A DNA stretch of 64,000 bases from Gekko japonicus (Eukaryota): NCBI RefSeq assembly GCF_001447785.1, contig NW_015163615.1:705433-769432 (forward strand), in the 5' to 3' direction. Each line of letters opens with the position of its first letter. Position 1 is the stretch's first letter. The notes under the pieces were generated by a model that saw nothing but the letters and a program-made list of their open reading frames with translations, ran no database searches and was not told the DNA's origin. This document shows, in pieces, positions 4,101 through 58,800 of this stretch. Both the position numbers and the translations under genes were made by a program.

Positions 4101-7100
4101 AGAAGCACTCAGACAGCCCTTGAGTATAGGCCAGCACAGGCACATAGCGGTTCAGTTCTTTAAGACGGTGCTGTGAAACCACAGCTCGATTCTGCCCCAC
4201 ATCTTCTTCGGACAGGAAGAACTGAAGAGAGACAGCAATGTTTAGAAGTGGGGTGAATCTATGGTGCTGTTACAGGCATGCCTGACACCATTTCACAGCA
4301 GAGGAAAAGTAAGAAATTTACTCTTTGTTGCTTGTCCTCTTCCCAGACTCAGTACGTTGCCTGAGGTCAGACACAAGATTTGGCTGATAGTTCCATTCCC
4401 AGACTTTATGCACCATCGAAGATATTAAAAACAGGGTGTGCCAATTGCTGAACCAGCAGAATATTGCCAGGGTTGTTTACATTCTTTGATTGCACCATGA
4501 AAGTGTGAAATTTGGTACTGGGAGTAGTAAGCAGCATCCTGAATTTATCAGCATTCATTTACTTTATAAAAACAGTTTCTGTCCCTTGTGACTGAAAAGA
4601 TAGGCTTGATAATATGTGGGCAATGCAATGCCTGAGGAAATCTCAGAAGTCAAAGTGGAGCATGGCAGTGATCAGGAGGCTTGACTTCCGTAACCTGCAG
4701 TGCCCTCCTAAGCAAAGTTGCAGCCGTTTCAGTGAACTGGGATCCATCATGAGTTTGGAAAGGAGTCGTTCTGCTCTGGACTGCACAGCTGTTATATAGG
4801 TTTTACCACCTCCCATAGCTAGAAGAAACAGAAGTATGCATAGTATTGTTACATAGTTTGTTATTAATAGGATAATGTGTTAATTTATCCAGATCCATTT
4901 CAAAATACTCTTAGCAGCGAATACATGTTCTTAACACTGGCATTGCAAAAACACTGCTCTGGTTAATGAAGACGGGTTATATATAGAAGGTATTGTTAAA
5001 AATGAGAGTACCAGGTTATGAATTTGAAGATGACCCATTAAGAAATTTAGGGTCCAATATGATAGCTAAAAAAAACCCCACTTGCAAAGTGCTGAAGTAT
5101 TACCTAACTACATAAGAAGACAGAAACTCCTGAAATGTTAATTAAATCAGCAGGCTATCACATGACAGCTTTGAAGGGGGAGGGATATGTGCCGCATTGC
5201 GGAGGAGGCAGTGATTTCACTCACTTTCCACACTTTGTGGTGGGGTGTTTTGTTTTTGGTTGCTAATGAGCTGAACTGGTGGCATATTACCATTTCATTT
5301 AGACTATTTTTAATAGCAATATAAACTGACTCATCAGACTTCACAAATTGTGCAACCTCATTTGAATTTATGGCCTAGATTACATCATAGCTCATGAAAG
5401 CAGCTAAACTATGAACAGTTATTAGTAACTGTTGTCCAACAGTAGCAGAACAGAATAAGAGCCATGCTGGATCAGACCAATGGTTCATCTAGTCTAGCAT
5501 CCTGTCTCTCACAGTGGCTAACCAGTTGCCCTGGGAGGCCCAACAACAGGGCATAGTGGCCAAGGCTTTCTCTTGATGTTGCCTCCTGCCACTGGGATTC
5601 AGAGCTTGACTGCCTCTGAATATGGAGGTTCCCCTCAGTCACTATGGCTATAAAGGCAATAGGACCAGTCAAGATGACTTGTTATGATGTAACTGGAGAT
5701 CTTGGAACACGAAATATGTCTGAAGTATAATTTGTATAAATTAACAAAATGCAGGCTTTCTTGGTACAGATTAAGGATTTTAAAAAGGTGTGTGTGGGGG
5801 GGGGACCCAAAATGTATATTACCTTAAAGCATACATTAAGAAAGTGGAAAGAAGGAACAGTACCCCTACAGCCTTTGTGAGGCAAAATATGAGAGATCCC
5901 CCCCTCCAGGATGTGGGTATAGTGCCAATAGAGGATGGGGGCTTTGCCACATGCCTGGCACTTGTGCTCCCACAAGCATACCTGTGAGGAGAGGTCACTC
6001 CACTGAGCATCATGCTGGTCATGGACAGTGACAGATTTCACTCCTGCAAGAACGATGTTCTTGGCGATCTCCACACCTAGCCCCTTCATGCCAGAGACCA
6101 GCACAGCAGCTGTAGCTATCTTCTGCATGGCCTCATAGCCCAGAACATAGCTAGAAAAAGGCACACCAGAAGAGAACCTGATTTTGTAATATGGCACATG
6201 CTTTCATTTTTTAAAAAAACATTTTTATTTTACTGTTTAAGGGGATACAAAATGAAAAAGGAGAAAGGGAAAGGTGAAGGTGAAGCATAAAACATTTGTT
6301 AAACACATTTTAAGGACATTACATAATAAAGGAATATAAGACATGAAAGAGTATGTTCGCAAAAGACTATCATAATAAATCAAAATATAGTAAAACAATC
6401 AATACTTCAACATAATATATTTCCATGTATATTTCCATTATTTCCTATCTGTAGCGCTAGGTAGGAAAACAAACAAACAAGAAACATAAAAGGTTAATAC
6501 TATCATGTAATAACTAGTAAATATGTAACTATAAAAGATTAATGATATAAGTACGAGAATATAATTATATGGTTTAGAGTATAAATCAATTTCAGTTTCT
6601 TTATAACTCCTCTATCAGCGTCTAATCTATGTAGTTTGTCTGTAGTAATTATAAAAGGCTCTCCACTTATTCTCAAATTCAGTGATTGGTTTTTTGTTTA
6701 TATAGTTCGTCATTTTCGAAATATGGCATATGCTTTCTCCAAACTTTACACCCACTTTTTCCCTGTGATTTTGTTGCCTAACATGGTTTTCCTGCCCTCA
6801 TGCCATATCAGAGCCCAACATGCCCCTTAGTCTCATCTTTAACTGTCACATAGTGCAATCCTAAACCATGTATTGAGAGGGCTTAGGATGGTGACTAAGC
6901 CTATGGTGCAAAATCCTGGAGATACTCTGTAGCCAGCCCCACCAGCATCACGCCAATGCCACACCAATGTGACCATTATGCCTGTGTAGAACTGTGTAGA
7001 ACTCTCCCTTTTCTCTCCCTTTCCCAGCATCTCTCTCTCCCTTTTCTCCTCAGAACTCCCCCCCCCCAAGGACTCTTCTATGGTTCTCTCTCAGGGCCAA

Positions 7101-8219
7101 ATACCTTTCCCCCAAATTCCAATAAACGGCCATACCCACAGGGTTTTGTAAGCATGTTATCATGGCCAATGTTGGGCACAGAATACAGTGTTTCCCTTGC
7201 CTGGTGCTTCCATGTCCTACATTGACTAGGATCTGAACCCTTGACAGAAGCACTCTGTAGTGGTTGCCCTCGATGAGCTATGGGAGTGTAGGAATGCTGT
7301 GCTGGATTAAAGGGTTGCCAGAAAAATTGAGGAAAATATCCTGTCCCATTAACAGAGACTTAATAAGGTGTTATTTACCAGGTGGTTATTTACCTCCATG
7401 CACTGAAAAGCTTCAACTGCTGATTTCTATACACTAAGCCTCTGTTAATGGGACCTTCGGCATGCAAAGTAGATATCTTCCACTGTGCCATGGCCCTTCC
7501 CTGTGGGTGGCAGCTGTGTGATATCAAGGGGCTGTGGCTATATCAGTGAGTGGCAGTTGACTGCATCCAAGATTGCCACTTACGGGAGCATTGGCACTGG
7601 CAGTACACTGCTTTGTGATTGGTGGATGTTGTTGGGGTTGCTATAGACTCTGGTTTACTCATCATGCAGTCAGATACTTGTCAAAGGGTGCTTGTGTCAT
7701 TTATTTCTCCTCTAGGGAATGGTCATATGATACTGAATAGCAGCACCACATTGTGAGTGCACCACCAGTACCAGGGTCTTAGGGCAGGGCTTCCTTTCTC
7801 CCAGCCTTCCTCCAAAATAATATATCTTCCTGTAGTGAATCTGTCTGCCCTGGCCCCTAGAACCATTACCCTATTAGTCCATCTAGGTGTTTTTTTTAGT
7901 TTCAAAACTTTATTGAAATTGATAAACAAGTACAGATTAAACAAAGAAGTAATTTCAACAATCAGTTATAAATAAGCAATTGTAACAGTAGTATAACCAA
8001 GAGTAAACTACATCGAAGGAAGAAAGATGTAACATATGCTGCTTTAGAACTAACAGAGGTCAATCAAACCAATACACAACGTTTATAGCTTCAAGAATAG
8101 ATTAAAATTCCTTTTGTTTAGCTAGCATACCTCTGCCAGCACATTTTTAATCACAAAACTCACAGTTGGCGCGAGTACAGTCCTTCGTCGATCTCTGGAA
8201 GGTTCTCTGAGGTGCTCAT
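1159..8219 (-). CDS. UBA7: Ubiquitin-like modifier-activating enzyme 7 (ISG15 E1), 5' part; the gene continues beyond the left window edge
   Basis: Nine coding exons in one continuous frame (1107 nt): 8164-8219 ([19 protein letters not shown]), 5982-6150 ([33 protein letters not shown]), 4087-4221, 3112-3218, 2770-2860, 2488-2632, 2015-2112, 1515-1661, 1159-1317 (..AAQEVLK). E1-family motifs are clear. The short N-terminus, divergence from UBA1, 3p21-type neighbours and an upstream ISRE favour UBA7 over UBA1. Confidence 0.88.
5450..5655 (-). mobile_element. CR1-type LINE 3' UTR fragment
   Basis: Resembles the reverse complement of the CR1 3' end at 34150-34320 (ctggatcagaccaatggttcatctagtctagcatcctgtctctcacagtggc). 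Confidence 0.55.
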
Positions 8220-9651
8220 TTTGCTCCTATCCATCAGACAGAAGGGAATCAGTAAATTCCTTAAGGCAAACTTCTTCCCCTTTTTCTTGTTAAGGATTTA
8301 GGAGGCCATTTAAGCTCCAAGGCTAGACTCTGACTTTTTATCATATCCCATTTGTAAATATATCAAGTTACCGCTTGTCCTTTTAAAGTACACCCTGTGG
8401 GTAGTGTGGAAGTTTCATAAATCCACATTACACATTGCCTCCATATGACACGCTGCTGCTTTAACCCCAACCACCATATAGGACACTGTTCATTATTTTG
8501 TCTGAGCATGTCCACCTTTCTGTTTCTCTCTCTTCCTCCTTTTTCTTTTACCCTCTCCTTAAAAAATTGCTTTAAAAGACAGCTGTAAATGGCAAACGTA
8601 CAATTGAAGTGAACCACCATAGATTTGGGTGCCAGCTTGTCAGCTGAAGACCAGTGTTTTGGATTTTGCTGGGAATCTCATTTCTAAAAGGATGACTTGA
8701 AAACAGAGAGTTGCCACCTGGGGTCTTTGGTGCATACATGTACAATTCAATTATGTTCTACTAAGAATAAGGCCCATTGTGGAAATAAATACAATGAGCT
8801 CTAAGAAAGAGGCTCTGGGTGGGTGCCCTGACCTTGAGCACTCAGCATCAATTTCCTGTGGCAACCTCAGCAGGGTATAATGACACATAGTCCACCGTTT
8901 TCTCCAGAGGGACTGATCTCTGCCATCTGAAGAGCAGTTGTAATCTTCAGCCCTCATCTGGAGATTGGCAACAATAGTTCCCCAGAAGGAACTGGCTGGT
9001 TTGGAGGATGGACTCTATGGCATTCTATTCAGCTGAGACCTCTCCCCTCCTCTAACTCTGGCTTCTGTAGACTCCACCGTAAAATCTCCAGGAATTTCCC
9101 GACCTGGAGCTGGCAATCCTAGTCAGGACTGGCCCCAATGAGTTCCCCACAAAGGCCAAAGTAGGCCTGGATTGGGCCTCTTGCCTTTTCCTTTTTACTG
9201 ACAGAACCAAGCTTGGTTGCCTAGCAACAGCCACTGAGGGAAAAGTTAGCCCCACAGGAGCCAAGCAGGAGAAGCATCTTCATCAGGAGAGACAGCCGTT
9301 TTGGCCATTTATTCTGTCAGGGAAGTGGCCAGGCTGGCAGTGGGCGAGTGAGAAAATCAGACCTAGCACCCAACCAATGGCACATGAGAACTCTTGAGTG
9401 GCAGCTGATGGGCCAATGGCTGATGGAGCACACAGCAGAGCCAATGGGAGAGCTGGAAAGTGCCAATACATTAGGGCTTTTATATATATCAGATTCTATC
9501 TGAGCATTGAATGAACCCATTACATATCTCAAGCAATCCACACCTTAGCTTAGCACTCACCTGACTAGACAACAAGAAAATAACCCTAAAAACCCAACAG
9601 AAAGGTGCACAGCTAACTGGGGATAGGACCCTAAAGTACACTGTATTTAAA

Positions 9652-9846
9652 TAGTTACCAACCTCCAGGTGGCACCTGGAGATCTCCCACGATTACAGCT
9701 GATCTCCAGATGACCAAGATCAGTTTCCCTGGATAAAATGACTACTTCGGAGGGCGGACTCTATGGCATTATACTCTGCTGAACTCTCTCCCCTCCTCCA
9801 CACCCCCTCCTCAGGCTCCACCCACAAAATTTCCAGGTATTTCCCA
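9652..9846. mobile_element. MITE of the 405-612 family, split by the ORF1-only element; its end resumes at 11493-11512
   Basis: Shared internal sequence with 405-612; the terminal ctggcaacccta lies after the second TSD. Confidence 0.65.
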
Positions 9847-11477
9847 TCTTCCGGTCGACGGAACAGCGATGGCGGACGCTCTCCTCACAACGGAGGAGGG
9901 CAAATCGCACACCAGCGGTCTGGAGAGGTGCCACCTCAAGTGACACCCCCGTGGAGCCTTTGTGATAGGCTCCAGGCCAGGGGGCTTTTGAGGGGTAGCC
10001 TCTTCAATAGCGTAATGCTGGAGAATTAAGGCTCCACTCCGCCCCGATGGTCCAGTCACTGAGTGGCCTTCGGGCACAAGCTGGACTGACCGGGACAAGC
10101 GCCGGAGATCAAGCGGAATGGCGTAAAACTGAGCGTGGTCAGATAAACTGGCCGATAATGAATGTGAGTTTTAAATAAAACGGAGTAGTTTGAAAAGCGA
10201 TCCCCCCCCCGCAATCGGAAACAGAGATTGAAAACAGGGACGCCTCTTTTGAGAATGAGTGGTTAACGGACACGAAGGGGGAGAGGGGAGGAAGTAAACC
10301 AAAAGTGTTTTGAGAAATTTATCTGAATTGCGAAGTCCTTTGGCAAGTTTTCCAAGTTATGTGGGAGCGGTAGAAACTGTAAACAAAACGGGAAAGATGG
10401 CGGTCCAGCAGAGAAAGTTTAAAACAAAACCGGGCAGTCAGAGTCCGAGACCGGAAGAGGGAGCAGATGTCCTCAAACTCCTGGCGGATATGCTTAAGCC
10501 GGTGATGGAACAACTCGATGGTATTAACCAGCAATTGACTGTGATGAATAAAAATTTTGCAGCACAGCAGCTCCAGCTTAAAACAGAGAAAAAAGTGGAG
10601 CAGGCAAATGAGAAAATTAAAGAGATAGACACCACAAGCAAGAAGTTGAAGAAAAGGATGGGAGAGGTGGAAACGAAGCAGAATTGCCAAGAGAACCGAG
10701 TCTTACAGCTAAATAACACCGGATGAACTTGTAAATGAAATGGAGGTAGCCTATAGGGCATACTCCAATTACATTAAAAAAAATAGCCTACCTGGAGAAA
10801 TAGTGGTCAAGTTTGCAAGAAGACAAACTAGGGACACCATTTTAAAAGCAACTTCAGCAACTCCACTGAAAATGGGAAATGTAACCATCAAAACTTTAAA
10901 GGACATTCCATTTGAAATTAGACAAAAGAGGAAAAATTACAAGGACCTAATTTCTTTTCTTCAAACAAATGGGATATCGTACAGATGGGCAGTTCCGGAA
11001 GGTGTCATCTTTAAGATCAACGATAGTGGGAAGCAGTAGTCTCTCAGGGTTCATAGGAGACTTCCAGACAATACATCCTCCTCCTGCACATCTGTAGCAA
11101 TAAGCATTTCAGCACAGGCAGAACAGCAGAGATAGGAATGCAATAGCAACTACCAAGACACAGAATGAACTCCCCAACCCCCATGGCAGCATAGCTGACA
11201 ATGGCCTTTTGAAGAGAAGAATAGAAGATGATCAGAGATTTCTCTCATAACAACTAATAAAATAACATATGAACAGTGAACTGTTATAAGCAAGAACTCT
11301 ACAAGTATATTGTGATATTAACACTAACAGTACTAACAGTGAAAGCATCTCCTCCTCTTGGGGTTTTAGTTTAGTGTGGTTTGCTTTCCTTTCTCCTTAG
11401 TTGTAGTCCCTTTCCTAATATTTCTTTGTAGTTTTGCAAAATAAAAAATATCCCTCCGGGGACTTAAAAAATAATAA
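9847..11477 (+). mobile_element. ORF1-only L1-clade retroelement (HAL1-like or internally deleted L1)
   Basis: 15-bp TSD TCCAGGTATTTCCCA at 9832-9846 and 11478-11492. CpG-rich 5' UTR; ORF1 coiled coil from ATG 10397; ORF1 RRM/CTD 10740-11039 (IVVKF..RDTILK..KDIP..RQKR..YRWAVP); no ORF2; A-rich tail. Confidence 0.8.
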
Positions 11478-11664
11478 TCCAGGTATTTCCCAACCCGTAG
11501 CTGGCAACCCTATATCTGAATTCAACATGTGGAATGGCATAAATGCCAACAAGAGGCACAGTACCCACAAGCAGGATAGCCCCATAGAGCGTCAGCCCCA
11601 AGGTCTGTCTGAAGATGTGTAAATCTTCTGACTCTTTCCTGCAGGGGGGAATTAAAAATCTTAC

Positions 11665-11760
11665 CTAAGCTGAGAGCTGCCTCCGCTATCTGTTCTATCC
11701 AATACGTACTTGTGATGCCAAGAACACCACAGCGCTAAGGATTCGCTAGAAAACACCCGG
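11665..11760 (-). other. UBA7: Putative non-coding first exon of UBA7
   Basis: Strong minus-strand donor AG|GTAAGA with the exon end at 11665, in a CpG-rich region just downstream of an ISRE. The first coding exon has an acceptor at 8227-8228. The 5' end is approximate. Confidence 0.5.
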
Positions 11761-11775
11761 GTTTTCGTTCCCTGG

Positions 11776-11792
11776 TAAACGAAAGTGAAACT
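11776..11792. promoter_or_regulatory. Interferon-stimulated response element (ISRE/IRF-E)
   Basis: TAAACGAAAGTGAAACT contains the consensus GAAANNGAAACT at 11781-11792, immediately upstream of the putative UBA7 exon 1. Confidence 0.75.
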
Positions 11793-12020
11793 AAAGGACA
11801 ATAGGTAGGCGGACGCGCAACTCCGTTTCTGCAACTCTGTGTACAAGTAAACGCGTTTGAGAGAGCTGCTCAATAACCATTGCCCGCACGACACACACGG
11901 TTATTTTTGCTATGTTCCGCTACGAACTTAGCTAAACGAATTCTGCGGCTTTTTTTTCCGGGTAGCACACAAAACCCAGTTCGCGGCACCTGCTCCTCAA
12001 AACCCGCAGTATAGGGTTTT

Positions 12021-12057
12021 TGTCTGAAGAAGTGTGTTTTGCACACGAAAGCTTACA
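12021..12057 (+). ncRNA. Minimal type I hammerhead ribozyme motif (Penelope-associated)
   Basis: TGT-CTGAAGA-A-GTGTG-TTTTG-CACAC-GAAA-GCTT-ACA: stem I TGT/ACA, CUGANGA core, stem II GTGTG/CACAC, GAAA, palindromic AGCU helix III. Followed by the family arm (aaactttgttggtctt). Confidence 0.6.
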
Positions 12058-12166
12058 CTTTGACTAAAACTTTGTTGGTCTTGACTCATATTTGTTCTCC
12101 CGCCCCATAGGATATAACTTTAGGTACAGCCTTGCTGAGGGGGCGGGGGCCGTCTCTTCAGGGCTC

Positions 12167-12668
12167 TGATTGCCATTAGAAGCCTGCTCCACTCTCCCAG
12201 CCTACAACCGAACGCCTCCTGCCGGTTGCTGCGGGTGTGCGCGCGTCCCCACAGTCGGAAAGGCTAAAGAAGCCTTTGGACGCGTCGTCAGACATCCTCA
12301 GGAAAACGAACGTCGACATTTTAATAGGGTTGGTGCTGAGTGGGACAAGCTGTCACGCGGGCAGTCCTGGGCAAACTGCGCAAGTCAATCGTGTGCAGAT
12401 TTACTCGAGTCCCTTTTTAATTAAATGATTGCCATTAGAAGCGTGCTCCACTCTCCCAGCCTACAACCAAACGCCTCCTGCCGGTTGCTGCGGGTGCGCG
12501 CGCGTCCCCACAGTCGGAAAGGCTAGAGAAGCCTTTGGACGTGTCGTCAGAAATCCTCAGGAAAACGAACGTCGACATTTTAATAGGCTTCGTGCTGAGT
12601 GAGACAAGCTGTCACGCGGGCAGTCCTGGGCAAACTGCGCAATTCAATCGTGTGCAGATTTACTCGAG
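12167..12668. repeat. Tandem duplication, two ~243-bp copies (period 259)
   Basis: 12167-12409 and 12426-12668 are near-identical (TGATTGCCATTAGAAGC...GATTTACTCGAG). Confidence 0.95.
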
Positions 12669-12809
12669 GATGTGGCTGAATGCAGTGGGCATCACTTCAG
12701 AGTAAATACTCTTTAGGCTGCGTTGGGAATTGACTGTCCGGCATGAACTTTTGGTCGAGAGGTGGGGGTATTTAAATAACAAGCCGGCGGCAGACTGGAG
12801 GGAAACGCG

Positions 12810-12850
12810 GCTGTGGGGGCGGGGCTTGCGTTTCCTTGCGCGCATGCGCC
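12810..12850 (+). promoter_or_regulatory. TCTA CpG-island promoter with GC box and NRF1 site
   Basis: GGGGGCGGGGC at about 12815-12825 and GCGCATGCGC at 12840-12849, about 115 bp upstream of the TCTA ATG. Confidence 0.6.
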
Positions 12851-12962
12851 GCCGTGCGATTTCCCTGCGCCTGCCTCCTTGTTTGCGCAGCAGGAGTTCT
12901 AGAGGGGCCGGCCGGGCAGAGCTCCCGCTTCCCTCCCCTTGCGCGGGGTCCGGGTGGGGAGG

Positions 12963-15900
12963 ATGGCGGCTGCTGCCGGTGAGTGGGAGGCTCCGTCGCG
13001 GGCGCTGAGGGCGCTGACCTGGCTCGGGCAAGAGTTCATGTCGGACTGGGAAGCCCAGGACTTGCGGGCCGCCCTCTTCCAGCTGCTCTTGCTCTGGCTG
13101 CTTGTGAGCTTGCTGGGTATCCAGGTGGCCTGGCGAGTCTATGGGAATACTGTCACCGGCCTCTACTACCGGCAAGGTAAGCCTCTCTTCTCGCTCGGTG
13201 CTCTGCTCCGCCACTCTTCTCCCGACCGTGGAGCCGGCTGTACGCATACAGGGTGGTCTTGGCATTGTCTCTCTCTTACCGCTGGCATCTGTTTGCATTG
13301 TCTTTCCTGCCTCCTCCTCTGTATTCTCAGTCCTGTTCGTGTCTCTCAAAGCCTTCAGGCCTCGGCCTCTGTTTTATAGTAGTAAATCTGGAGCCTGTCT
13401 TCTGCCAGAGATCAGTGGCTGGAGTCCTAAACTAAATAAAGTATTAACTGGCCAGAGGCAGGTGGCTGTGGAAGCAGGGTTGAGTCTTGATGTTGACTTA
13501 TGCCTTTGGTGGCAGTTCACTTTGGAAGATGGGGGCAGGCCGGCCCTCATTGTTTCTGTGCTTTTCATAAAACTAGTTGCTGCTGTCCTGACCTGGGTCG
13601 CTCAGGCAAGCCTGATCTCGTCAGATCAGGGAAGCTAAGCAGGGCTGATTCTGACAAGTACTTGGGAAGGCGACCTCCAAGGAATACCAGGGCTGGGACA
13701 CACAATGCCCTAGCACTACTAGGGGTCGCCAGAAGTCACCATAACTTCCAGGCTCGCAAACACGCACACACACACACACGATCCTCACCAGAAAAAGAAA
13801 ACTAGTTGCTGCCTTGGGCTGTACTTTCTGTTGTCAGGCCCTGTTGACTTTGATGCCTTGACCTTGTTGGACTGAACAGCCAGCACAATGCAAAATAATT
13901 CTCCACTCCCTAATCTCACCCCTGTCCAAGACTACGCAGTAGTCTGGTACTGGGTTAGGTAGGTGTTGCAATGGCAGCTGTTTCCATAGTGACATTGTGA
14001 GTAAACATCTTTTGAGAGTGAAGCATCTTTAAAGAAAGCTAATTTGCAGTACAATCTAGACTGGAATAGCTCTGCAGGGGAAGGTACTGTTGGAGTAGCC
14101 ATGTCAGACAGGGGAGACCTGGGTTCAGATCCCCCACATAACTATGAAGCTTATGGATTGACCTTGAGCCTGTTTGTCTGTCTCTCTCTCTGCCTTGCTG
14201 GGTTTTTGCAAGAGGAAAAGTTGAAAAGAGAGCCTTATGTGTTGCCCTGTGATAGGTTAGACTAGCTTTTGAAACTTGGTGCTTGCCAAGCCTCTCTCGT
14301 GTGTTCTGCTTTTATAATATTTTTTCATGACATTCTTGGGGTCACTTAACTGAATACATTGGGGACTGAACTCTACTAAAGCAAGACAAAGTATCTGCTC
14401 TGCCACTGAGCCACAGCCCCCTTTATGGCCCTTCTCCTTCTGTGCATGAATTGTACATCAGAGTCAACAGAATCCAAATGAGACATCAAGGGATCTGCAT
14501 CTGCTGAACTTTTTCTCCTTTGGATACCTAATTTCCTGAAAGCTGAGATATTTGATGTTGTTGCCTGAGGACCGGAAAGATTATTCAGCCTTGCTGGAAT
14601 GGTGCCTAAGAACAGTGAGTCCTTGAAAGGCTAACTGATTAACTTTGGCGTGAACCAAGACTACTTTCTAATGACACCACTGACTGCTATGGGCCAAACT
14701 AGACGTGAAGGCATCCTTAAAATTCTGGCCCACTGACATCAGCCCAACAGAATGTGTCATATTGCAGGAATCAGGCAATGTTTCGGGGTGGGAGACCAGA
14801 AGTACCTTCTGCCGCAGTTGGTGCTGTCTAATGTTTCGGATTTGATGTTAGTTACTTTGATTAACATTAGTAGGATTGTTGAGGCCTAGGTTTTTAAGCA
14901 TCTAGAATGACTTGCTTAGTGTTACTGATACCAGGACACAACATGCTATTTGTAAAGATTTTTAATTATGTCTTGATGGCAGCCATACTAGTGACAGCTA
15001 GACACTAGAAAACAGAAGCCCTCCTCTAGAAAAGCCAGTGACCTAACAAAGTCAGGCGTGTCTTAGCCATGGAAAACCTATCCACTGGATTAAGCTGGGT
15101 TGACTAGTCCATCTGATTTCTTAACGGCTTGTTTCCTTTTCCTGCAGTCTGTCGTGATCTGTCTCAGGCCCTGTAAATATTTTTTTTACCAACTCATATT
15201 TAGAAAGGATTTTGATACTTTCTTCTATTAAGTATCAAAACCCCTTAATACAACAATTCACAATCCTTAAAGTGCACAGTTCAGCTCTATTATTTGATTT
15301 CAACTTGGGAGAGCTCCTGGGGGTTGTATTGTTACGTTTAATTGTTTTGTTATTTCTTAATGCTTCTTACTTAAAGAATAAAAATAGTTTAAAATGGTAG
15401 TTTAAAATGGTTTGTGTGGAAATACCTTACCTCTCATTTTCTGTCAGCTACATAACAGTAGTGTCTTCATTTTTTTGTTTTTAAGATTATTGGGTCTAAA
15501 AGTGATCAAGAATATATATGGCCATTTTATTTCTTTCAATCACATTAGTTTCCAGATAAATCATCCTGTAATTTCTGGGACTAATGTTTTAGTTGAGCAC
15601 ATAGGAGGCTTTCTTTTTTTTTTTTTGGATTACTGAGATCCTCTCTCAGATGCCTTTCTACAGTTTGTTTATATAAAATATTTTCCAAAGGATCCAAAGT
15701 TCCCAGTTTCCTAGTTTTTGGGCATTATTTGCTGCCTTATATTCCAACCTCAGCACAAGCATTGTCTGCTTGGTTATACTGATTTGTTATAATGCATCAC
15801 TCTTCTGAAAAGTTCCTCTAAATTGGAGTGATCAAAGAGACTGTGAGAGGAACAGGCTTGTTCAGTATCCCAAAGAGGAATGGAAGCTGTGCAAAAAATA

Positions 15901-24400: not shown

Positions 24401-27259
24401 GTACTGTACAGGTAGGCTCCAGCCTGCAAAGCCCACCATCTTCCCACCATGGTGTCGGTGAAAGTCATAGAGAGGTGTTTGCTTCAGACTGTCCTATAGA
24501 GGAAGGAAATGAGTGCCATTGATCAGCAACCTACATGTGACCATCAGAGTCCAGCAAACTTGTCCAGCTACATCACAACCACTCCCAAACTGGCCCACCT
24601 CAGTCCTATTCGAGGAACACACAGAAAATAATTCCTCCCTTCCCCAAATTAGAGCTGTACTGACCACTCTCCGTGCAGCCCTTGGTTCCTCCTAGAGGCT
24701 TATAATGCTGATTTCTTGCTGTCCCAAAGAATTCGCACACCCACACAGGAAACTTTATGGTTCCCAGTTCACCAGCCCTTGAGAAAGGTAATCATGAGGA
24801 CCAAGGGGTGCGTGTCAGAAAGAAGTCACCCCCCAAAAGATTCAACTGGGCTAAAAAAAGGAGCAGGATGCAAATAGTGACTGCCTGCCAACAAGTTTTT
24901 GTACTCCTTTATGGCCTGAATTGATTCTGGGTATGATCTTGACACGTGGCTTTCCATCAGGCTTCCATTCTACTATCTTACATAACTAAAGCATTCTATC
25001 ATAATATGCAAAATGAAGCTCTAGAGTTCTTCAGCATACAGTGAATGAGCAAATGATGGAAAGGGCTATGCTAACTTTCTCCATACATGGGTTTGTTTTT
25101 TTAATTGTCAGGAATGTTATTTAAAAATGACCCATACATGTGCAGCCTCAAGTAATACAATCCAGAAGCCTATTTATCTTATTCCACCCAGATAAGGTGC
25201 AGCATAAGTATCTACCCATGCATCCACCTCTATCCTCAGAAAGATGCTGAAATAAGTTATAACCTTTTGGCATTACAGCATTTGAAGAGGGTGGAAGGAT
25301 GGCCACATCTGACCACCTCATATGTTTTATAATGAATTATACTAAAGACCAACCTTGGTATTATTTCATTAGAAAGAGTACTTTGGGGTCAGGGGGTAAA
25401 TCTTGTCTATCTGAATGCCTCTGACCTTTGTAATGAGGTTTGTTTGCTTACTGCTTTATCACAAGCCCAACGTCAAGAGGAAAAAGACTGTTCGCCCTTT
25501 GGACCCCCCCATAGGTATGCAAGTCTCCTCTGTGTCACTTTCTCACCCCGTTAAGATCTTAGCTATATGTTTATGGCTGAAAGTTGTCATGATTATCTCC
25601 AGATAAATCCCATTTTCAGTTTTCCTCAGTGTAGTAGGTAATGACAACTACCTGTGCTTAAAAGTATTTCTTACAGCAGCACCATTCATGGTTAAAAAAA
25701 ATAATAACTGGAGAGCAGTTGGTATTTGAAAGAATGGACAGTGTAGATCTATACTTCCACAAGACAGACCACCAGCCATGTGAAGTGACCTATCTCTGTG
25801 CTCATCCCTAATATTCTCTGACAACAGCAGTGGGAAATAGCAATTTTATAACTACTGACTAATAGGGATAGTTTGGATGTTTCTATTGCAGGCTACCAGC
25901 TGTCCTTCCTAGTTGGGCCCATACTTGAAAGGCTTCTCTTTGTTCACAGTGGTATTTTCTTCAGTTGCACCCTATAAATATTTTGTTCAGCCATGCTATA
26001 GATTCTGCATCACTGAACAAAATATTTCTTAATAGAACATACCCCTTGGGCAGATGTAAATAGCTACTCCCTCCAATATTGTAAGGCTAAGAGAACAATG
26101 GCTTTCCCTGTTGTGGCCTGATTCACACATTATATATCCTGCATGTATGTATGCCTGTTTGTAAGAAAGAGACGTGTTCAAATGAACCAGAGACCAGTAC
26201 CTGGATAAATGTGGGGTTTAAATCAGGTTTAGCTGTACCTGAATAGGATTACTCAATGGACCTATTAAAAAAATCAAGTGTACACCGTATACAGATTGTA
26301 CATGTGTTCACTGTAACTTGTAAACAGGCTACAAGTAAGGAGTGGGATTGTTTGATTCTTGGAGTTTGCAGCGTTTTTACCATCAGGGAAAGACTCCTTG
26401 GTCAGATATCTAATTCCCAGTTCAAAAGACATCAGCATTCTCAGCAACATCTCAGGAAACTCGCACAAAACAGCAGTCAGTTTCTGAGAAGTTGGGAGTT
26501 CTTTTCCCTGCAGGGGAAGTTGCCAGGGCCGGTTGCAGTTTGTCAGTGTGAAAGAAAAATCAAGGTAGGTAGCTGTGTTAGTCTGTCTGTAGCAGTAGAA
26601 AAGAGTAAGAGCCCAGTAACACTTTAAAGACTAACAAAACTTGTGGTGGGGTATGAGCTTTAGTGAGCCACTGCTCGTGACTCGCGAAAGCTCATACCAT
26701 AAATTTTGTTAGTCTTTAAGATGCTACAAGACTCTCTTCTAGTGTGAAAGCAAAGCTCTCTGTCCAGGAGCGCCTTCCCGTTTTCAATTATCCAGTGATT
26801 CAACTGGACTTCCTAATGGCTAAAAGATCACCCAAATTAAAATTCAGCCGTGGCCAAGAACATATTTATTTATATTTAAAACATGTGAATTTATAGTCCC
26901 TTCGAAGTTTTCTCAGCCGAAATTCCCCTTTTATCTCCAGCACAAAGGATTGACCGCTTCGTGCCCTGCTGTAGACACAGGACCATTCCGCTACCGCTGC
27001 TTTAGGCATGTTTATTTTAAACAAACAAACCTCCTTTTATTCAGCGGTGCTTACGCCCTGCCAAGTGTTCTTAGGCTTGTAGCCTAACGCGCCTCTTTGT
27101 CCCAGAAGCAAGCAGCAACCCTGCACAAGATTCCTCTCTCCCCCAAGGGGTGTGTGTGTCCCTGCTCACCTGCCCAGCAGCGTAGCCCCGCTTCGCACAT
27201 AGGGTAGGCTCACCGAACCCCAAACGCGGAGACACAAGCCGCACCGCAGCCCGCAGCAT
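18404..27259 (-). CDS. AMT: Aminomethyltransferase, mitochondrial (glycine cleavage system T protein), 403 aa
   Basis: Nine exons: 27170-27259, 24326-24493, 22795-22875, 21342-21473, 21062-21140, 20172-20317, 19693-19873, 19089-19244, 18404-18582 (1212 nt). Motifs [64 protein letters not shown]. Arg-rich N-terminal presequence. Confidence 0.97.
20491..20696. mobile_element. hAT-like MITE
   Basis: TIRs CAGTGTTCCCTCTAAGCTG / CAGCTTAGAGGGAACATTG; 8-bp TSD GCCTAAGT/GTCTAAGT. Confidence 0.8.
23276..23592. repeat. Cluster of adjacent local tandem duplications in AMT intron 2
   Basis: GATCTCTCAAGA x3; a ~70-bp unit (..gaaggcatcatcatc..ggctaatgatacaaatatgaactgatttcca) x2; a second unit (gcgaaggagttcatgcagcagg..gggaaatgtactctttcacagcagaagcagtactgag) x2. 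Confidence 0.85.
26565..26740. mobile_element. Palindromic Penelope-derived repeat with partially deleted hammerhead core
   Basis: Inverted arms aaagactaacaaaa..gtatgagcttt / gaaagctcatacc..ttttgttagtcttt. Confidence 0.6.
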
Positions 27260-41637: not shown

Positions 41638-48226
<6,589 letters not shown>

Positions 48227-52800: not shown

Positions 52801-55800
52801 GGCCATTCTACTGTGTGGTATAGCAAGTTCTGGATCTGTCTATAATAAGGAAATCTTGTTAACTTGGGTGACTATGTTCACATCCAGATGTACAGTGTTC
52901 TGGCTTCAAAGGTGCTTTTGGCTCTGTTGCCAGTGAACCCATGGTCTTCAAGACAGGAAAAGGTTTTCAGGTACTACATCCCTTGTTGGAAGTGGTGTGA
53001 TTTGATGAGGATGTAATCCAGAGAGACTAGCAAACTCTAGACATGATGGCATGCCACTAGAGCCACCAGCACCTTTGGTGCTGACAAAATGAGAGTGCTC
53101 ATGGCAGTGGTTCTCTGTATATACAGCATAGGAAAGTCATTTTATAGCTGCTGAACATGCAGGTCATTAAAAGGCAGCAAGTCCTTGTGTATGATTAAAG
53201 CAATTATACATAAAGGGCCCTTGTCCTTACGTGTTGTTTTTCATGTGATTGAAACACTTCAGCGCCTGGATGGTCTGCATTTTTATTCTTTTGGGGTATG
53301 GTAAAAATCTGAATTAAACTTGTTAATGAACCTGGTTTGGAAGAAGAAGTTTAATGGCTTCAGGTGCATAGCCATGTTGAATCCATTGGCACCTTTCAGA
53401 CTAACAAAATTTAATTCTGGGTATAAGCTTTTGTGTGCCTGCACACTTCATCAGATATCTGATGAAGTGTGCATGTACACAAAAGCTTATACCCAGAATT
53501 AAACTTTGTTAGTCTTAAAGGTGCCAATGGACTCAAAGTTTAATGGCTGTAAGAGAAGCTGGTGGTTGATGGGACATGTAGGTTTGGATGATGCTAAGCA
53601 GAATTTACACAGGTGAAAGGAGGGGTAATTTTGCTGTGAGTTTTCTAATTGCAGGGTATATATACCCTTGAAGGGCAACTCCACAGTATCTGAAGGTTGA
53701 AAGATAACCTCTCTCATGACCTGGCAAAGTGCTGGATGTGGCTCCCTATCTTGATAGTACAGACAGCTTCCATGACAGCGAGGCTGTGTGTGACTTCTTG
53801 TCTCTTCAGAATCTGGACAAGGGTGTTCTTGTGAACACCTGTAAGTTCAGAGTGCTGCCATTTAGCTTTGTAGTTCCTGAAGTTCCCAGGTTGACTGGAA
53901 GAGTTAGTATCACAAAAGGATCAAAGCTATTTTTGTTTTTCATTCTTCCTTTTTTAGGGTAGTATCAGCTGGGCAAGCTTGTTCCTATCTTTGGTTTCCA
54001 CCAATATGGCACATAAGGAGCCTCCATACAAACTGGACCTCCCATAGATCTTTCGCACTCCTGAAGTGGTAAATGCTGTGAGTCTTCCCTACCAGGGAAA
54101 AATGGGCTGTCAAGAGACTAGGTCTTTTTGGTTGTCTCTTGTCAAAACGCAAACAATGGTTCAGGTTGAAACCTAGAAAACCATGGAGGTTTTCTTCTCC
54201 CTATGAATTCAAGGTCGAGTGACCGTGGTGTCAGAGAGAGAGCAATAATGAGATGGAAGGGCTTCACAGGTGCTGAGTAGATCCTCTGGCCTAGCAGTTT
54301 GAAGGGCACCAGAGTGGGACTATGCATTCCATTTTATTTGTGTCAGGACTTTGCTTAATTGGACCCTATACAGCTGCAAGGTATCTGGTCTAACTGACAA
54401 ACACACCTGATAGGTTGAGTTTCCTGGTCAATAACACAGATCATTGGCCAAGCTACATCATTAGCTTATACATTTGGTTGGTCAATCAGAATCATGCCAA
54501 TGCAGGTCGCTGAGCATAAAGAAAGATTCTTCAGTTTAGTTTCTGCCCTTTGTCTGGATTACAACTAACTTTGGGACATCTTTTGACTCTAGGTGGGCCA
54601 GGCTAGCTGGAAACCTGTTTGACTCAGACTTTGAAGCTTTATTAGACTCAGCCTTGTAAAGGTAACATCTGGATTAGAACTGATACTTGCAAAAGGGATT
54701 AGGTTAGATATATAGCTTTATTATTTTATCCTCACAGCTCATTGCTCTTTTGTCTATTCCTGCAAAATCTTTTAATAAATCCCTTTAATTATATCTTGTG
54801 CTGTTCCTGGGTTTGGGGCTTCAATCTGAATCCAGTACTTTAGTTCATATTGGTAACTGTTTTCTGGAACCTTCTAAGCATCCTACATTGCAGGGCTGAC
54901 TTTCTTGTTCTTTGACCCAGGAGGTCTAGAGGTTTAGATCCTTGGTCTTTGGCTGATGGGTAAGTAAGGAGACCGGTGGTAGCGATACCCGGGGGGAGGG
55001 GGGGTGGATTCATACTTCAGCTCTTCTGGCTTGTCTTGACCAATCTGTCGCCCTTAAGCAGGGCCTTGGCTTTAAGTGGCAAGGGGCCAGGAGGAGATAG
55101 TGCATGAAACTGGAAGGGATGCTAACAGGGCCTGGTCTTTCTTCCTGAGGCCTCCTGCCACAGACTTCTGTTCCCACCCTGGACCTAACAGTGGCTTAGT
55201 CTAGACAATGCAGGAATTATGGGGACACTCCTCCCTTCATGGGACACATTACGTTCATTTAGAAGACTCACTGTATGCATTTACCACCCTCAGGAATCCA
55301 CCTCAACAATTCTATGGTGGTTTCCCTATTTTTGTAGCTTGTGGTAATTAGAACATTTCAGCTGGTCACTGAGTTTTGATTCTAAACAGTTTGAAATAAT
55401 GTCTAGCTCACTAACTATCTCTGCCTATGGTTCTCCTTTCCAAGCACTGACTTCTACAACTTCTGTTAGCAAGCTTGCCTTGTCTTATGGGATAAGACCA
55501 AAGAATTTTTAAAAATATTTTGTACCATGCAATGCAGATTAACATTTGCAGTGATCAACACTCATGGCAAGTACTCTTGCCAGACATCATGTCACCAGTC
55601 AGAAATGTGAGTGTATCATCTAGCTGTAGTCAATTCTGCATGTAAAAAATGGGAAGAAGAGAAGCACTTGTGTTTTTAAAGCTGATGTTATCTTTAAAAA
55701 ATCACAAGCTTTGCTTACTACTAACCAGGCTGGCCTGGCCTGGGAGCTGAAGGGATGCCCTCTTGGAGTCATTTGCAGTGTGATCGTGCAAAATCCCACT

Positions 55801-58800
55801 TCCTGGAACTGCCTGCAGATTTGCTTATTATGTTCCTGTGGGACAGGGCGATGGAAGGCATTGATGCACCATCACCTTAGTGCTGGAAAATGTGCTAAGC
55901 CTCCCTCCTCCTTGGCCTTCTGAGATTTCTCCAGGAACTGGCCAAACACTTTGTAGCCTCTGAGGGTTAAAAAACTTTTTTTGAACAAGAGAAAGTGGAG
56001 GATCTCCAGATGCCAGATTTCAGCTTTGGCGCCAAACTACATGCTTTCAGTGTCATCACATCACACGCATGGCTGTGTATAGAAGAACTATTTCCCTGAT
56101 ACCTCAATCATCCATCCAGGTACCTCCCAACTAGAGAAACTCATGAAAGGGAAATCCCACTTAGAAACTTCAAGGGATTCAAGTGGACAAAGCTAAATCA
56201 GGTTGGTTAAAGTCTATCACTCCTGCCATCCAATCAGTAGCCAAAGATAAAGAACAGCTCACTCCCCCCACAGGGTTACTCACTTGCAGGACTTGTGGGA
56301 GCATGGCTTGAACACAGCAGAAATTGGATGCGCATAGCAGATTGGGCATAGGTCCTCCTCACTGGTGGGCTGCAGAAAGAACAACACTCAACATATCAGC
56401 GGCAGCCAGGATTAGCCTACATCAAGTTTAAGTGCAAAGTGACTCATAATGAGAATGCTTTAAGAACAGAGCAACAGGCCTTTACAGTCCATGGAACAAA
56501 GTTCTGCAATTCAACCCTCAAGAGTGGAGTTGCTGGGCAGGTTTGTACTCTCTAGGTTTTAGGGTTCAGACAGAAACCACAATGCCAAAGATCAAGCCAA
56601 GTTGGTTGCTTCACTGCCCCTATCCAGAAGCTCTTGAAGAGAGAAGAAGAGAGAAGACATTGGATTTATACCCCGCCCTTCACTACCCAAAGGTGTCTCA
56701 GAGCGGCTTACAAACTCCTTTCCCTTCCCCTCCCCACCACAGACACCCTGTGCGGTAGGTGGGGCTGAGAGAACTCTGACAGAAACTGCTCTTTTTCAAG
56801 AACAGCTCTTATCAGAACTATGGCTTGCCCAAGGTCATCCAGCCAGGTGCAAGTGGAGGAGTGGGGAATCAAACCCGGTTCTCCCAGATTAGAGTCCGCG
56901 CACTCAACCACTACACCAAACTGGCTTGAGATCAGAGGTGGGTCCCAGTAGGTGAAGAACGCATCCTCCTGTTCTAAGGTACATGAAAATCAGAGCTGTT
57001 TCCACTGGGGTGACTGGGCAGGACATTTCCAGACTTGGGGCCTGAGAGGGCACATTGTCTTCTATGCTGGTTTCTGCTCTACTCTGTGTCTGACTGGTGT
57101 AATTTGGTGAGTAGAGATTTAATTCTACTATTGAGGGAGGAACTGGCAGATAATGCTGCACTGAACAGGCCCAGTTGTCTATACCTGAGGTGGTGATGGG
57201 CCCCCTCCCTCTATTTTGGTACAAATAATTATGGGAACATTAATGGTAAAATCAACTTCTCCCACTGCCATGGGGAAGGGAGAAGGTCTGACAATGCAGG
57301 GTTACAGTCCAGGGTTACAAACCCTTACCAATCCTGTCATAATGAAGTTTGAGTCCAGAGGCAACTTTAAGACCAACAAAGCTTTATTCTGGGTATAAGC
57401 TTTTGGAGCCAGTTTGGTGTAGTGGTTAAGTGCGCGGACTCTAATCTGGGAGAACCGGGTTTGATTCCCCACTCCTCCACTTGCACCTGGCTGGATGACC
57501 TTGGGCAAGCCGTAGTTCTGGTACAGGTGTTCTTGAAAAAGAGCAGTTTCTGTCAGAGCTCTCTCAGTCCCACCTCACAGGGTTTCTGTTGTGGGGAGGG
57601 GAAGGGAAAGGAGTTTGTAAGCCGCTCTGAGACTCAGTTGGGTAATGAAGGGTGGGATATAAACCCAATTTTTTCTTCTTCTTCTTTTGTGTGCATGCAC
57701 ACTTCCTCAGATACAACAATCCTATCATGTAATTTGGGAGGAAGAAAAAGATTCCCCATAATTCTATTTCTTCTTTTACCAGGAATTCCATGACTGGCTC
57801 TGCTGTCCATGGTTCAGAAGAGCTGATTTGGGAATACAGGAGTACATTATGTCATAAACAAGGGGGGGGGAACCCCTGTCTGTGGCCAAGAGGAAGAGCA
57901 ATCCCAGTGGGCATGCTGCCCTACAGCCACCAGGAGGGGGAGGGGCTGAAATACAGCCAAAAAAAGACTTACAAGATATAAATAAAAAACCTCAAGTCTT
58001 ATGAATCACCCCCTTGGTGCAGGGACAAGAGAATACGTACACTTGACTATTCAGCATGCTGTCCTTTAACTTTGATGCTGGGAGAGTTTGTAAGAGTCAA
58101 GTCATGCTTGCTTAGGCCTCCCTGGCTTCACTAACTCTTCACACTGAAAGTACAGTGGACTCAGCCTAGCTTGAGGTTTTTTAGTAAGGTTCACTTTCAG
58201 CCTCCAGATGGGCCTTCACTCTGACACTGGATTTCCCCAAGTGCCAGGGTGGAGCTTTCACATCCACCCCCTGCCTCTGCTCTCCTACTGCAGCAGCCTT
58301 CATGCAGCTCTGAGCCGCAACTGGAAAGCGAGCAGCCACATTAATAATTCAGATCCAGCCAGGATCATGTTTTTTGCTGGATCACGGTTACCTTTCAGAG
58401 GTCACTCAGACACAATCACACGTACAGGGAGCACTTCAGCTCCCAAAATCTCCCTGAGCAGCCACTATTCTACTCTTATGCCCTTTGTCCCACGATGCTT
58501 TCTACACCACATCTCCCATCCCAAAATCAAAGGACACACAATTCTACAGCTTTAATTGATGCACGTTTATCAAGCCTGTTTTGTGTTTATTTTGCATTGC
58601 TGAGTCTTTGTCTTAGATTCAGATCCTAAGACCTAAGGATTCTTTGTTTTAGAGAATCCAGAACTTTTAAAGCAAACATTGGGGAAGAATGGGTTTGAAA
58701 AGGGAGATAATGTGAATTGTAAGGGCACAGCCAAAGATTTAACATTATATGGGACCTAATTTCACCAAAAGCAATGGATTTCTGCGCCATTAGGACATCT

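What the first reader, a model, noticed from the sequence alone, without database searches (positions are those of the whole stretch)
12021..12090. Intact-looking minimal hammerhead ribozyme between the UBA7 and TCTA promoters
Seen: UGU-CUGAAGA-A-GUGUG-uuuug-CACAC-GAAA-GCUU-ACA keeps the CUGANGA and GAAA cores together, whereas the copies at 42.8, 53.4 and 57.7 kb have CACGAAA decayed to CACAAAA. Known: Penelope-like elements carry minimal type I hammerheads with a palindromic helix III that are thought to cleave as dimers. Inference: the unmethylated CpG island protected the catalytic G, so + strand promoter-upstream transcripts from the UBA7 promoter could self-cleave here, possibly insulating TCTA. 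Stem I is only 3 bp, so activity may be weak.
Basis: partly seen in the sequence, partly recalled or inferred. Interest (0 to 1): 0.7.

Follow-up and report, generated by a model that had tools for sequence, protein, structure and literature searches.

The report
Penelope retrotransposon stub in a promoter
The self-cutting-RNA motif is real, but it is an 82-base leftover of a very common Penelope-type jumping gene, with over a thousand similarly intact cores in the same genome, and it is predicted to fold poorly here, so it is likely an ordinary inert passenger in this promoter.

Summary
The minimal type I hammerhead at 12021-12057 is real, and its predicted cut lies after 12054. It sits in a 5'-truncated terminal-repeat stub (12017-12098) of a GIY-YIG Penelope-like element, flanked by a decayed 13-bp target duplication. 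It is not special. A strict intact-core pattern matches 1,071 places in the genome (control 0), and 33 places carry the same 34-base core. Of 30 such copies fetched, only this one has a flanking CpG ratio of 0.6 or more. The other 29 resemble decayed copies (p=0.39), so the island is not needed to keep the catalytic G. The stub lacks the distal helix I arm of longer copies. With its flanks, helix I forms with predicted probability 0.03-0.17, versus 0.9 or more in several longer copies. No intact partner for a dimer lies within the window. Published relatives do not cut as monomers or need the element's protein. RNA coverage was too thin and unstranded to test transcription. Ribozyme cuts leave a 5'-OH that XRN2 does not degrade, which weakens the insulator idea. 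The scan found similar stubs before on other gecko DNA. Verdict: ordinary passenger.

The parts
12017..12098 (+). 5'-truncated terminal-repeat (pLTR) stub of a GIY-YIG Penelope-like element, with a 13-nt internal deletion between 12082 and 12083
12021..12057 (+). Minimal type I hammerhead: helix I 12021-23/12055-57 (3 bp), CUGAAGA 12024-30, extra A 12031, helix II 12032-37/12041-46, GAAA 12047-50, AGCU palindrome 12050-53, predicted cut after 12054
   Evidence: sequence; descriptor hit; covariation between subfamilies
12030..12060 (+). Competing hairpin (AAGUGU 12030-35 with ACACUU 12055-60), predicted to displace helices I and II
12003..12015 (+). Left copy of a probable decayed 13-bp target-site duplication
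   Evidence: 10 of 13 match with 12099-12111; the only such match among 1,595 positions tested
12099..12111 (+). Right copy of the probable target-site duplication, abutting the element's 3' end
11600..13300 (.). CpG island of the divergent UBA7-like / TCTA promoter region
11781..11792 (.). ISRE-like motif, the only one in the window; likely part of the UBA7 promoter (consensus recalled, not from a call)
8163..8234 (-). Predicted first coding exon of the UBA7-like E1 gene (next exon about 5982-6149)
12963..13178 (+). TCTA first coding exon
   Evidence: Pfam PF15128, E 6.7e-23; reads break off at 13178

Best explanation
This is a short, 5'-truncated copy of the terminal repeat of a Penelope-like retrotransposon lying in the UBA7/TCTA CpG island; it keeps the element's hammerhead core, is predicted to misfold, and is likely an inert passenger with no host role. 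Shown: the motif, its family, the family's position downstream of GIY-YIG reading frames, the copy numbers, and the loss of the distal helix I arm. Inferred: a target-primed insertion that stopped after about 95 nt and left a 13-bp duplication; neutral decay since, with the core intact by chance (roughly 2-3% of copies); little or no cleavage in vivo.
For: 1,071 strict intact cores in the genome; identical 34-nt core in state CG 33, TG 55, CA 38. Flanking CpG ratio of intact copies has median 0.26, vs 0.22 (TG) and 0.26 (CA); Mann-Whitney p=0.39 without the window copy (30 of 33, 30 of 55 and 30 of 38 loci). About 33 intact cores would fall in CpG-island-like DNA at random. The motif family lies downstream of GIY-YIG frames in 26 of 30 and 16 of 20 loci (4 of the 16 are tail-only hits at the frame's end). 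A copy of this exact subfamily (L032) aligns with a GIY-YIG element's frame end and 3' UTR, 86.6% over 464 nt. With flanks, P(helix I) is 0.03-0.17 and the cleavage-ready ensemble 0.3-2%. No second descriptor hit in 64 kb. A Schistosoma minimal hammerhead was inactive as a monomer and weak as a dimer (PMC4209133). The anole element's hammerhead does not cut without the element's protein, and no RNA-seq ends map to its cut site (PMC11167929).
Against: The copy is the only one of 90 fetched that lies in a CpG island, though it was selected for attention. Its 37-nt motif equals the subfamily's common form, while its tail is more decayed than average: 4 substitutions and 1 gap in 37 sites, vs a median of 8%; 4 of 29 other intact copies are as decayed. 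The duplication also has 3 mismatches in 13. This is a weak hint of selective retention, and the changes are clustered. The isolated 37-mer folds helix II at 0.99 and helix I at 0.56, so co-transcriptional folding could briefly favour it. A few locus-specific RNA reads cover about 11880-12046 in one run. No reverse transcriptase frame was found for this clade.
Confidence: 0.88

Rival explanations
1. Neutral passenger with marginal activity: rare plus-strand promoter-upstream RNAs are occasionally cut after 12054, helped by a trans partner or the element's protein, with no effect on the host.
For: All core nucleotides are present; the cleavage-ready fold is only 1.9-3.6 kcal/mol above the ensemble. 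Family RNAs are abundant in RNA runs. Protein-assisted cleavage is shown for the anole element.
Against: The predicted 37-mer dimer swaps helix II rather than forming the AGCU helix III. The anole protein's RNA-binding part lies in the first 172 nt of the frame, just downstream of the hammerhead; the equivalent region here would be cut short and carries a deletion (inference). No pile-up of read ends was seen, at very low depth.
Confidence: 0.08
2. Exapted cis-element: the hammerhead cuts plus-strand RNA from the interferon-responsive UBA7 promoter and so shields TCTA.
For: Position between an ISRE-like motif (11781-92) and the TCTA 5' region; intact core beside a decayed tail; both junctions present in DNA run X1 and the left one in X2.
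Against: Poor predicted fold and no partner. A ribozyme cut leaves a 5'-OH product that is not degraded and is used to report read-through (PMC6938672; PMC2702688), so it would not be expected to stop the polymerase. An intact core is expected by chance in dozens of islands. Strand of transcription is unknown; on a minus-strand RNA the motif cannot cut.
Confidence: 0.03
3. Chance match to a hammerhead descriptor, unrelated to any ribozyme.
For: No Rfam hammerhead hit; fold z-score -0.32.
Against: Compensatory changes between subfamilies: helix I pair 2 is G-C in 109 and A-U in 35 of 168 copies; helix II pair 4 is U-A in 133 and A-U in 28 (few independent events). Fixed position in the element's terminal repeat.
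Confidence: 0.01

Closest known systems
Minimal type I hammerheads in pLTRs of metazoan Penelope-like elements (Cervera and de la Pena 2014, PMC4209133; parts 1-2 of 4 read, supplements not read)
   Same: CUGANGA and GAAA cores, extra base before G10.1-C11.1, long helix II, short helix I, palindromic 15.2-16.2, no helix III; mostly single dispersed copies from truncated elements; reported in turtle and snakes.
   Different: Helix I is 3 bp here (4-5 bp in their Schistosoma families). Longer copies of this subfamily have a predicted 8-bp distal helix I that this copy lacks.
PAc / Poseidon_Ac of Anolis carolinensis (Frangieh et al. 2024, PMC11167929; parts 1-2 of 4 read)
   Same: Squamate element with C-terminal GIY-YIG, a hammerhead in the terminal repeat, and a short tail that ends genomic copies.
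   Different: Here only an 82-nt stub with no frame. Clade membership was not tested by a tree, and no reverse transcriptase was recovered for this family.
Animal non-LTR retrozymes (10.64898/2026.07.22.740005; part 1 of 5 and keyword passages read)
   Same: Derived from Penelope pLTRs, with a type I hammerhead.
   Different: Retrozymes are tandem arrays with an intact hammerhead in at least two units; this is a solo fragment.

Membership tests
Minimal type I hammerhead (PLE type) | CUGANGA and GAAA cores, G10.1-C11.1, NUH triplet | tested here: met
   triplet CUU, with U17 in 130 of 168 family copies
Minimal type I hammerhead (PLE type) | Helices I and II supported by compensatory changes | tested here: met
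   subfamily-level changes, so few independent events
Minimal type I hammerhead (PLE type) | Palindromic 15.1-16.1 segment for a dimer | tested here: met
   AGCU at 12050-12053
Minimal type I hammerhead (PLE type) | Active fold favoured in native context | tested here: not met
   predicted P(helix I) 0.03-0.17 with flanks; prediction only
Minimal type I hammerhead (PLE type) | Second intact motif nearby for a cis dimer | tested here: not met
   only one descriptor hit in the 64-kb window
Minimal type I hammerhead (PLE type) | Self-cleavage activity | not testable with these tools
   needs a bench assay; RNA depth too low
EN+ Penelope-like element | Motif lies in the repeat downstream of a C-terminal GIY-YIG frame | tested here: met
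   (shown for relatives; the window copy has no frame)
EN+ Penelope-like element | Reverse transcriptase upstream of GIY-YIG in the same family | tested here: inconclusive
   no RT motif in 20 decayed loci; the RT+GIY-YIG frame L231 has no hit to this motif family
EN+ Penelope-like element | 5' truncation, shared 3' end, inverted pairs | tested here: met
   (45 of 90 copies reach the same 3' motif); inverted pairs at 42.8 and 53.4 kb
Penelope/Poseidon clade | Placement by RT phylogeny | not tested
   clade name inferred from architecture and from earlier scan notes
Non-LTR retrozyme | Tandem units, at least two with an intact hammerhead | tested here: not met
   solo fragment; definition
Exapted conserved host hammerhead | Orthologous conservation across species | not testable with these tools
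   no relatives held; all listed runs are organism A

The most novel reading that the evidence does not exclude
A Penelope stub has been domesticated as a conditional RNA cutter in an interferon-responsive bidirectional promoter: when UBA7 is induced, its plus-strand upstream RNA is cut after 12054, which destabilises it before it reaches TCTA. The intact core beside a decayed tail and duplication would be the mark of selection.
Probability: 0.03. Interest if true: 0.7.

Novelty: new member of a known kind. Interest (0 to 1): 0.1.

Why it matters
As found, it matters little: it is one of more than 1,000 intact-core copies of a known kind of element. Its value is as a control case. An intact ribozyme core in a CpG-island promoter is expected dozens of times by chance in such genomes, so position plus intactness is not evidence of function. 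If the unlikely reading held, it would be a retrotransposon ribozyme recruited to manage promoter RNAs of an innate-immunity gene. One literature search (4 papers, listing only) showed no such case.

Tried and rejected
Rfam scan: no hammerhead model hit. CpG-island protection as the cause of intactness: no association among 89 other copies or in the unbiased sample (9 CG vs 14 decayed, p=0.79; 34 of 66 hits could not be classed and 9 had other letters). Family-wide selection for the catalytic G: TG 55 vs CA 38, p=0.097, and 5 vs 9 in the sample, so no signal. Expression: no RNA holder on record was listed. The raw RNA runs look unstranded (TCTA exon 12.3 vs 12.4 in X22), and reads over the motif come almost all from other copies (12064 C>A, family loose ends); no end pile-up. 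This is inconclusive and not counted as evidence against. Family-wide target duplications: 26 of 90 vs 13 of 90 in a control, weak. Search for an RT frame of this clade: none. The bacterial promoter/terminator scan is not relevant. Earlier scan notes near this place or like this sequence: none. Cross-species conservation could not be examined.

Full report
Observation. The motif is in the sequence as described: helix I UGU/ACA (12021-23, 12055-57), CUGAAGA (12024-30), an extra A, a six-pair helix II, GAAA (12047-50), the AGCU palindrome and U17 at 12054. It is the only full descriptor hit in the window. Rfam has no hammerhead hit at E<=10. The copies at 42.8, 53.4 and 57.7 kb read CACAAAA but belong to another subfamily. 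The site lies in a CpG island. TCTA is on the plus strand (Pfam). A UBA1/UBA7-family gene is on the minus strand; another paralog matches UBA1 better, so UBA7 is likely.

What it is. A DNA search of the genome returned 1,990 candidates, the best 94-98% identical. Against these, the window copy spans 12017-12098, is 5'-truncated and has a 13-nt deletion in its tail. It is flanked by a probable decayed 13-bp duplication with 10 of 13 matches, the only such match among 1,595 positions. An earlier scan note gave the lead for this test. The motif family lies on the same strand downstream of GIY-YIG frames in 4 of the 30 best Pfam loci, and in 26 of 30 and 16 of 20 loci found with one of those frames (4 of the 16 are tail-only hits). 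Two of three such frames tested pass Pfam's GIY-YIG cut-off. A copy of this exact subfamily, L032, aligns with the frame end and 3' UTR of L274 (86.6% over 464 nt). So the stub is the terminal repeat of an endonuclease-bearing Penelope-like element. I did not recover a reverse transcriptase for this family, and the Poseidon label is inferred. Compensatory changes between subfamilies in helix I and helix II (168 copies, mostly one subfamily, few independent events) indicate selection on the structure in the active ancestors.

How unusual. In 80 blocks of 10 kb from nine large contigs (771 kb without N), there were 66 family fragments, and 2 met the full descriptor. That extrapolates to about 213,000 fragments and about 6,500 intact motifs (95% interval 780-23,000). 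A strict pattern gives 1,071 exact matches, control 0. The identical 34-nt core occurs 33 times with CG, 55 with TG and 38 with CA. Flanking CpG ratios do not differ: medians 0.26, 0.22 and 0.26 in 30 loci each; p=0.39 without the window copy (two pairs of loci overlap). Only the window copy among the 30 intact ones reaches 0.6. Island-like DNA was 23 of 757 kb, so about 33 of the 1,071 cores would sit in such DNA at random. Methylation protection may have helped here, but it is not needed. Mean tail divergence of 7% implies a subfamily of about 1,350 copies, of which 33 are perfect, as neutral decay would give (this estimate is built on the same counts).

Against this reading: the window copy's tail is more decayed than average (4 substitutions and 1 gap in 37 sites; 4 of 29 other intact copies are as decayed) while its core is unchanged. 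The changes are clustered and the copy was picked for its intact core, so I give this little weight.

Would it cut? In longer copies an upstream arm pairs with a downstream A-rich arm to extend helix I; 37 to 49 of 90 copies keep it, by strict or relaxed pattern. Copies such as L006, L009, L097, L115 and L117 have predicted helix I probabilities of 0.90-0.94. The window copy lacks the upstream arm and has a substitution in the other. With 5-150 nt of flank its helix I probability is 0.03-0.17 and helix II 0.21-0.41, because a competing hairpin forms. The bare 37-mer does better (0.56 and 0.99). The predicted 37-mer dimer swaps helix II instead of forming helix III, and no intact partner lies in the window. 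In PMC4209133 (parts 1-2 of 4 read) a single minimal hammerhead showed no cleavage and dimers only low cleavage. In PMC11167929 (parts 1-2 of 4 read) the anole element's hammerhead cut only with the element's protein, was dispensable for insertion in vitro, and left no read ends in RNA-seq. PMC8557442 (passages) calls the function of these motifs unclear. Supplements were not read; those of PMC4209133 may list a closer reptile motif.

Insulation. Passages of PMC6938672 and PMC2702688 state that ribozyme cleavage leaves a 5'-OH product that XRN2 does not readily degrade; it is used to report read-through. Cleavage would therefore not be expected to stop polymerase before TCTA (inference).

RNA. 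Three raw RNA runs and one contig set were laid on 8000-14000, and two DNA and two RNA runs on 11600-12500. The libraries look unstranded. Reads over the motif carry other copies' letters and flanks. A few reads with locus alleles cover about 11880-12046 in X22, and none covers 12096-12219 in X21 or X22. No end pile-up was seen, and UBA7 exon coverage was near zero. This cannot decide transcription. DNA run X1 shows both junctions and X2 the left one; no empty site was listed, and one of these runs may be the assembly's own source.

Verdict. A real Penelope-type minimal hammerhead in a truncated stub, most likely inert (0.88). Marginal neutral activity 0.08, exaptation 0.03, chance match 0.01. 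The scan had noted similar stubs on other gecko DNA. Interest 0.1.

Noticed in passing
window 11781-11792: ISRE-like motif (consensus recalled), the only one in 64 kb, upstream of the UBA7-like gene; fits an interferon-inducible promoter. UBA7 induction by poly(I:C) in human cells is stated in passages of PMC13664870.
   Followed up: partly
window 12167-12409 and 12425-12668: Tandem duplication of about 245 bp in the TCTA promoter/5' region. A contig of DNA run X1 leaves the stretch at 12409, and an X3 contig carries first-unit letters at second-unit positions. It is likely polymorphic, or two haplotypes assembled in tandem.
   Followed up: partly
L006, L009, L097, L115, L117 (cores near position 1500): Longer copies of this subfamily have a predicted 8-bp distal helix I beyond an internal loop, which out-competes an inhibitory hairpin. 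5' truncation would switch the ribozyme off. Minimal descriptors ignore this part.
   Followed up: partly
L032, L088, L108, upstream of the core: The 3' UTR of this subfamily seems to hold a degenerate internal repeat of about 290 bp with a broken earlier hammerhead, suggesting an old tandem duplication of the terminal repeat.
   Followed up: no
window 42720-42865, 53386-53528, 26610-26733: Inverted (fold-back) pairs of Penelope terminal repeats that give spurious sub-threshold miRNA hits in Rfam.
   Followed up: partly
window 57369-57720 (minus strand): A Penelope terminal repeat split inside its core by an insertion of about 280 bp of another repeat.
   Followed up: no
L231:1550-3838, L236, L237, L239: A second Penelope-like clade with long open frames (760-780 codons; RT and GIY-YIG shown for L231), possibly young; no hit to this hammerhead family nearby.
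   Followed up: partly
window 8200-13200: UBA7-like gene head-to-head with TCTA; in human, TCTA is head-to-head with RHOA (recalled, not from a call), so gene order may differ here.
   Followed up: no
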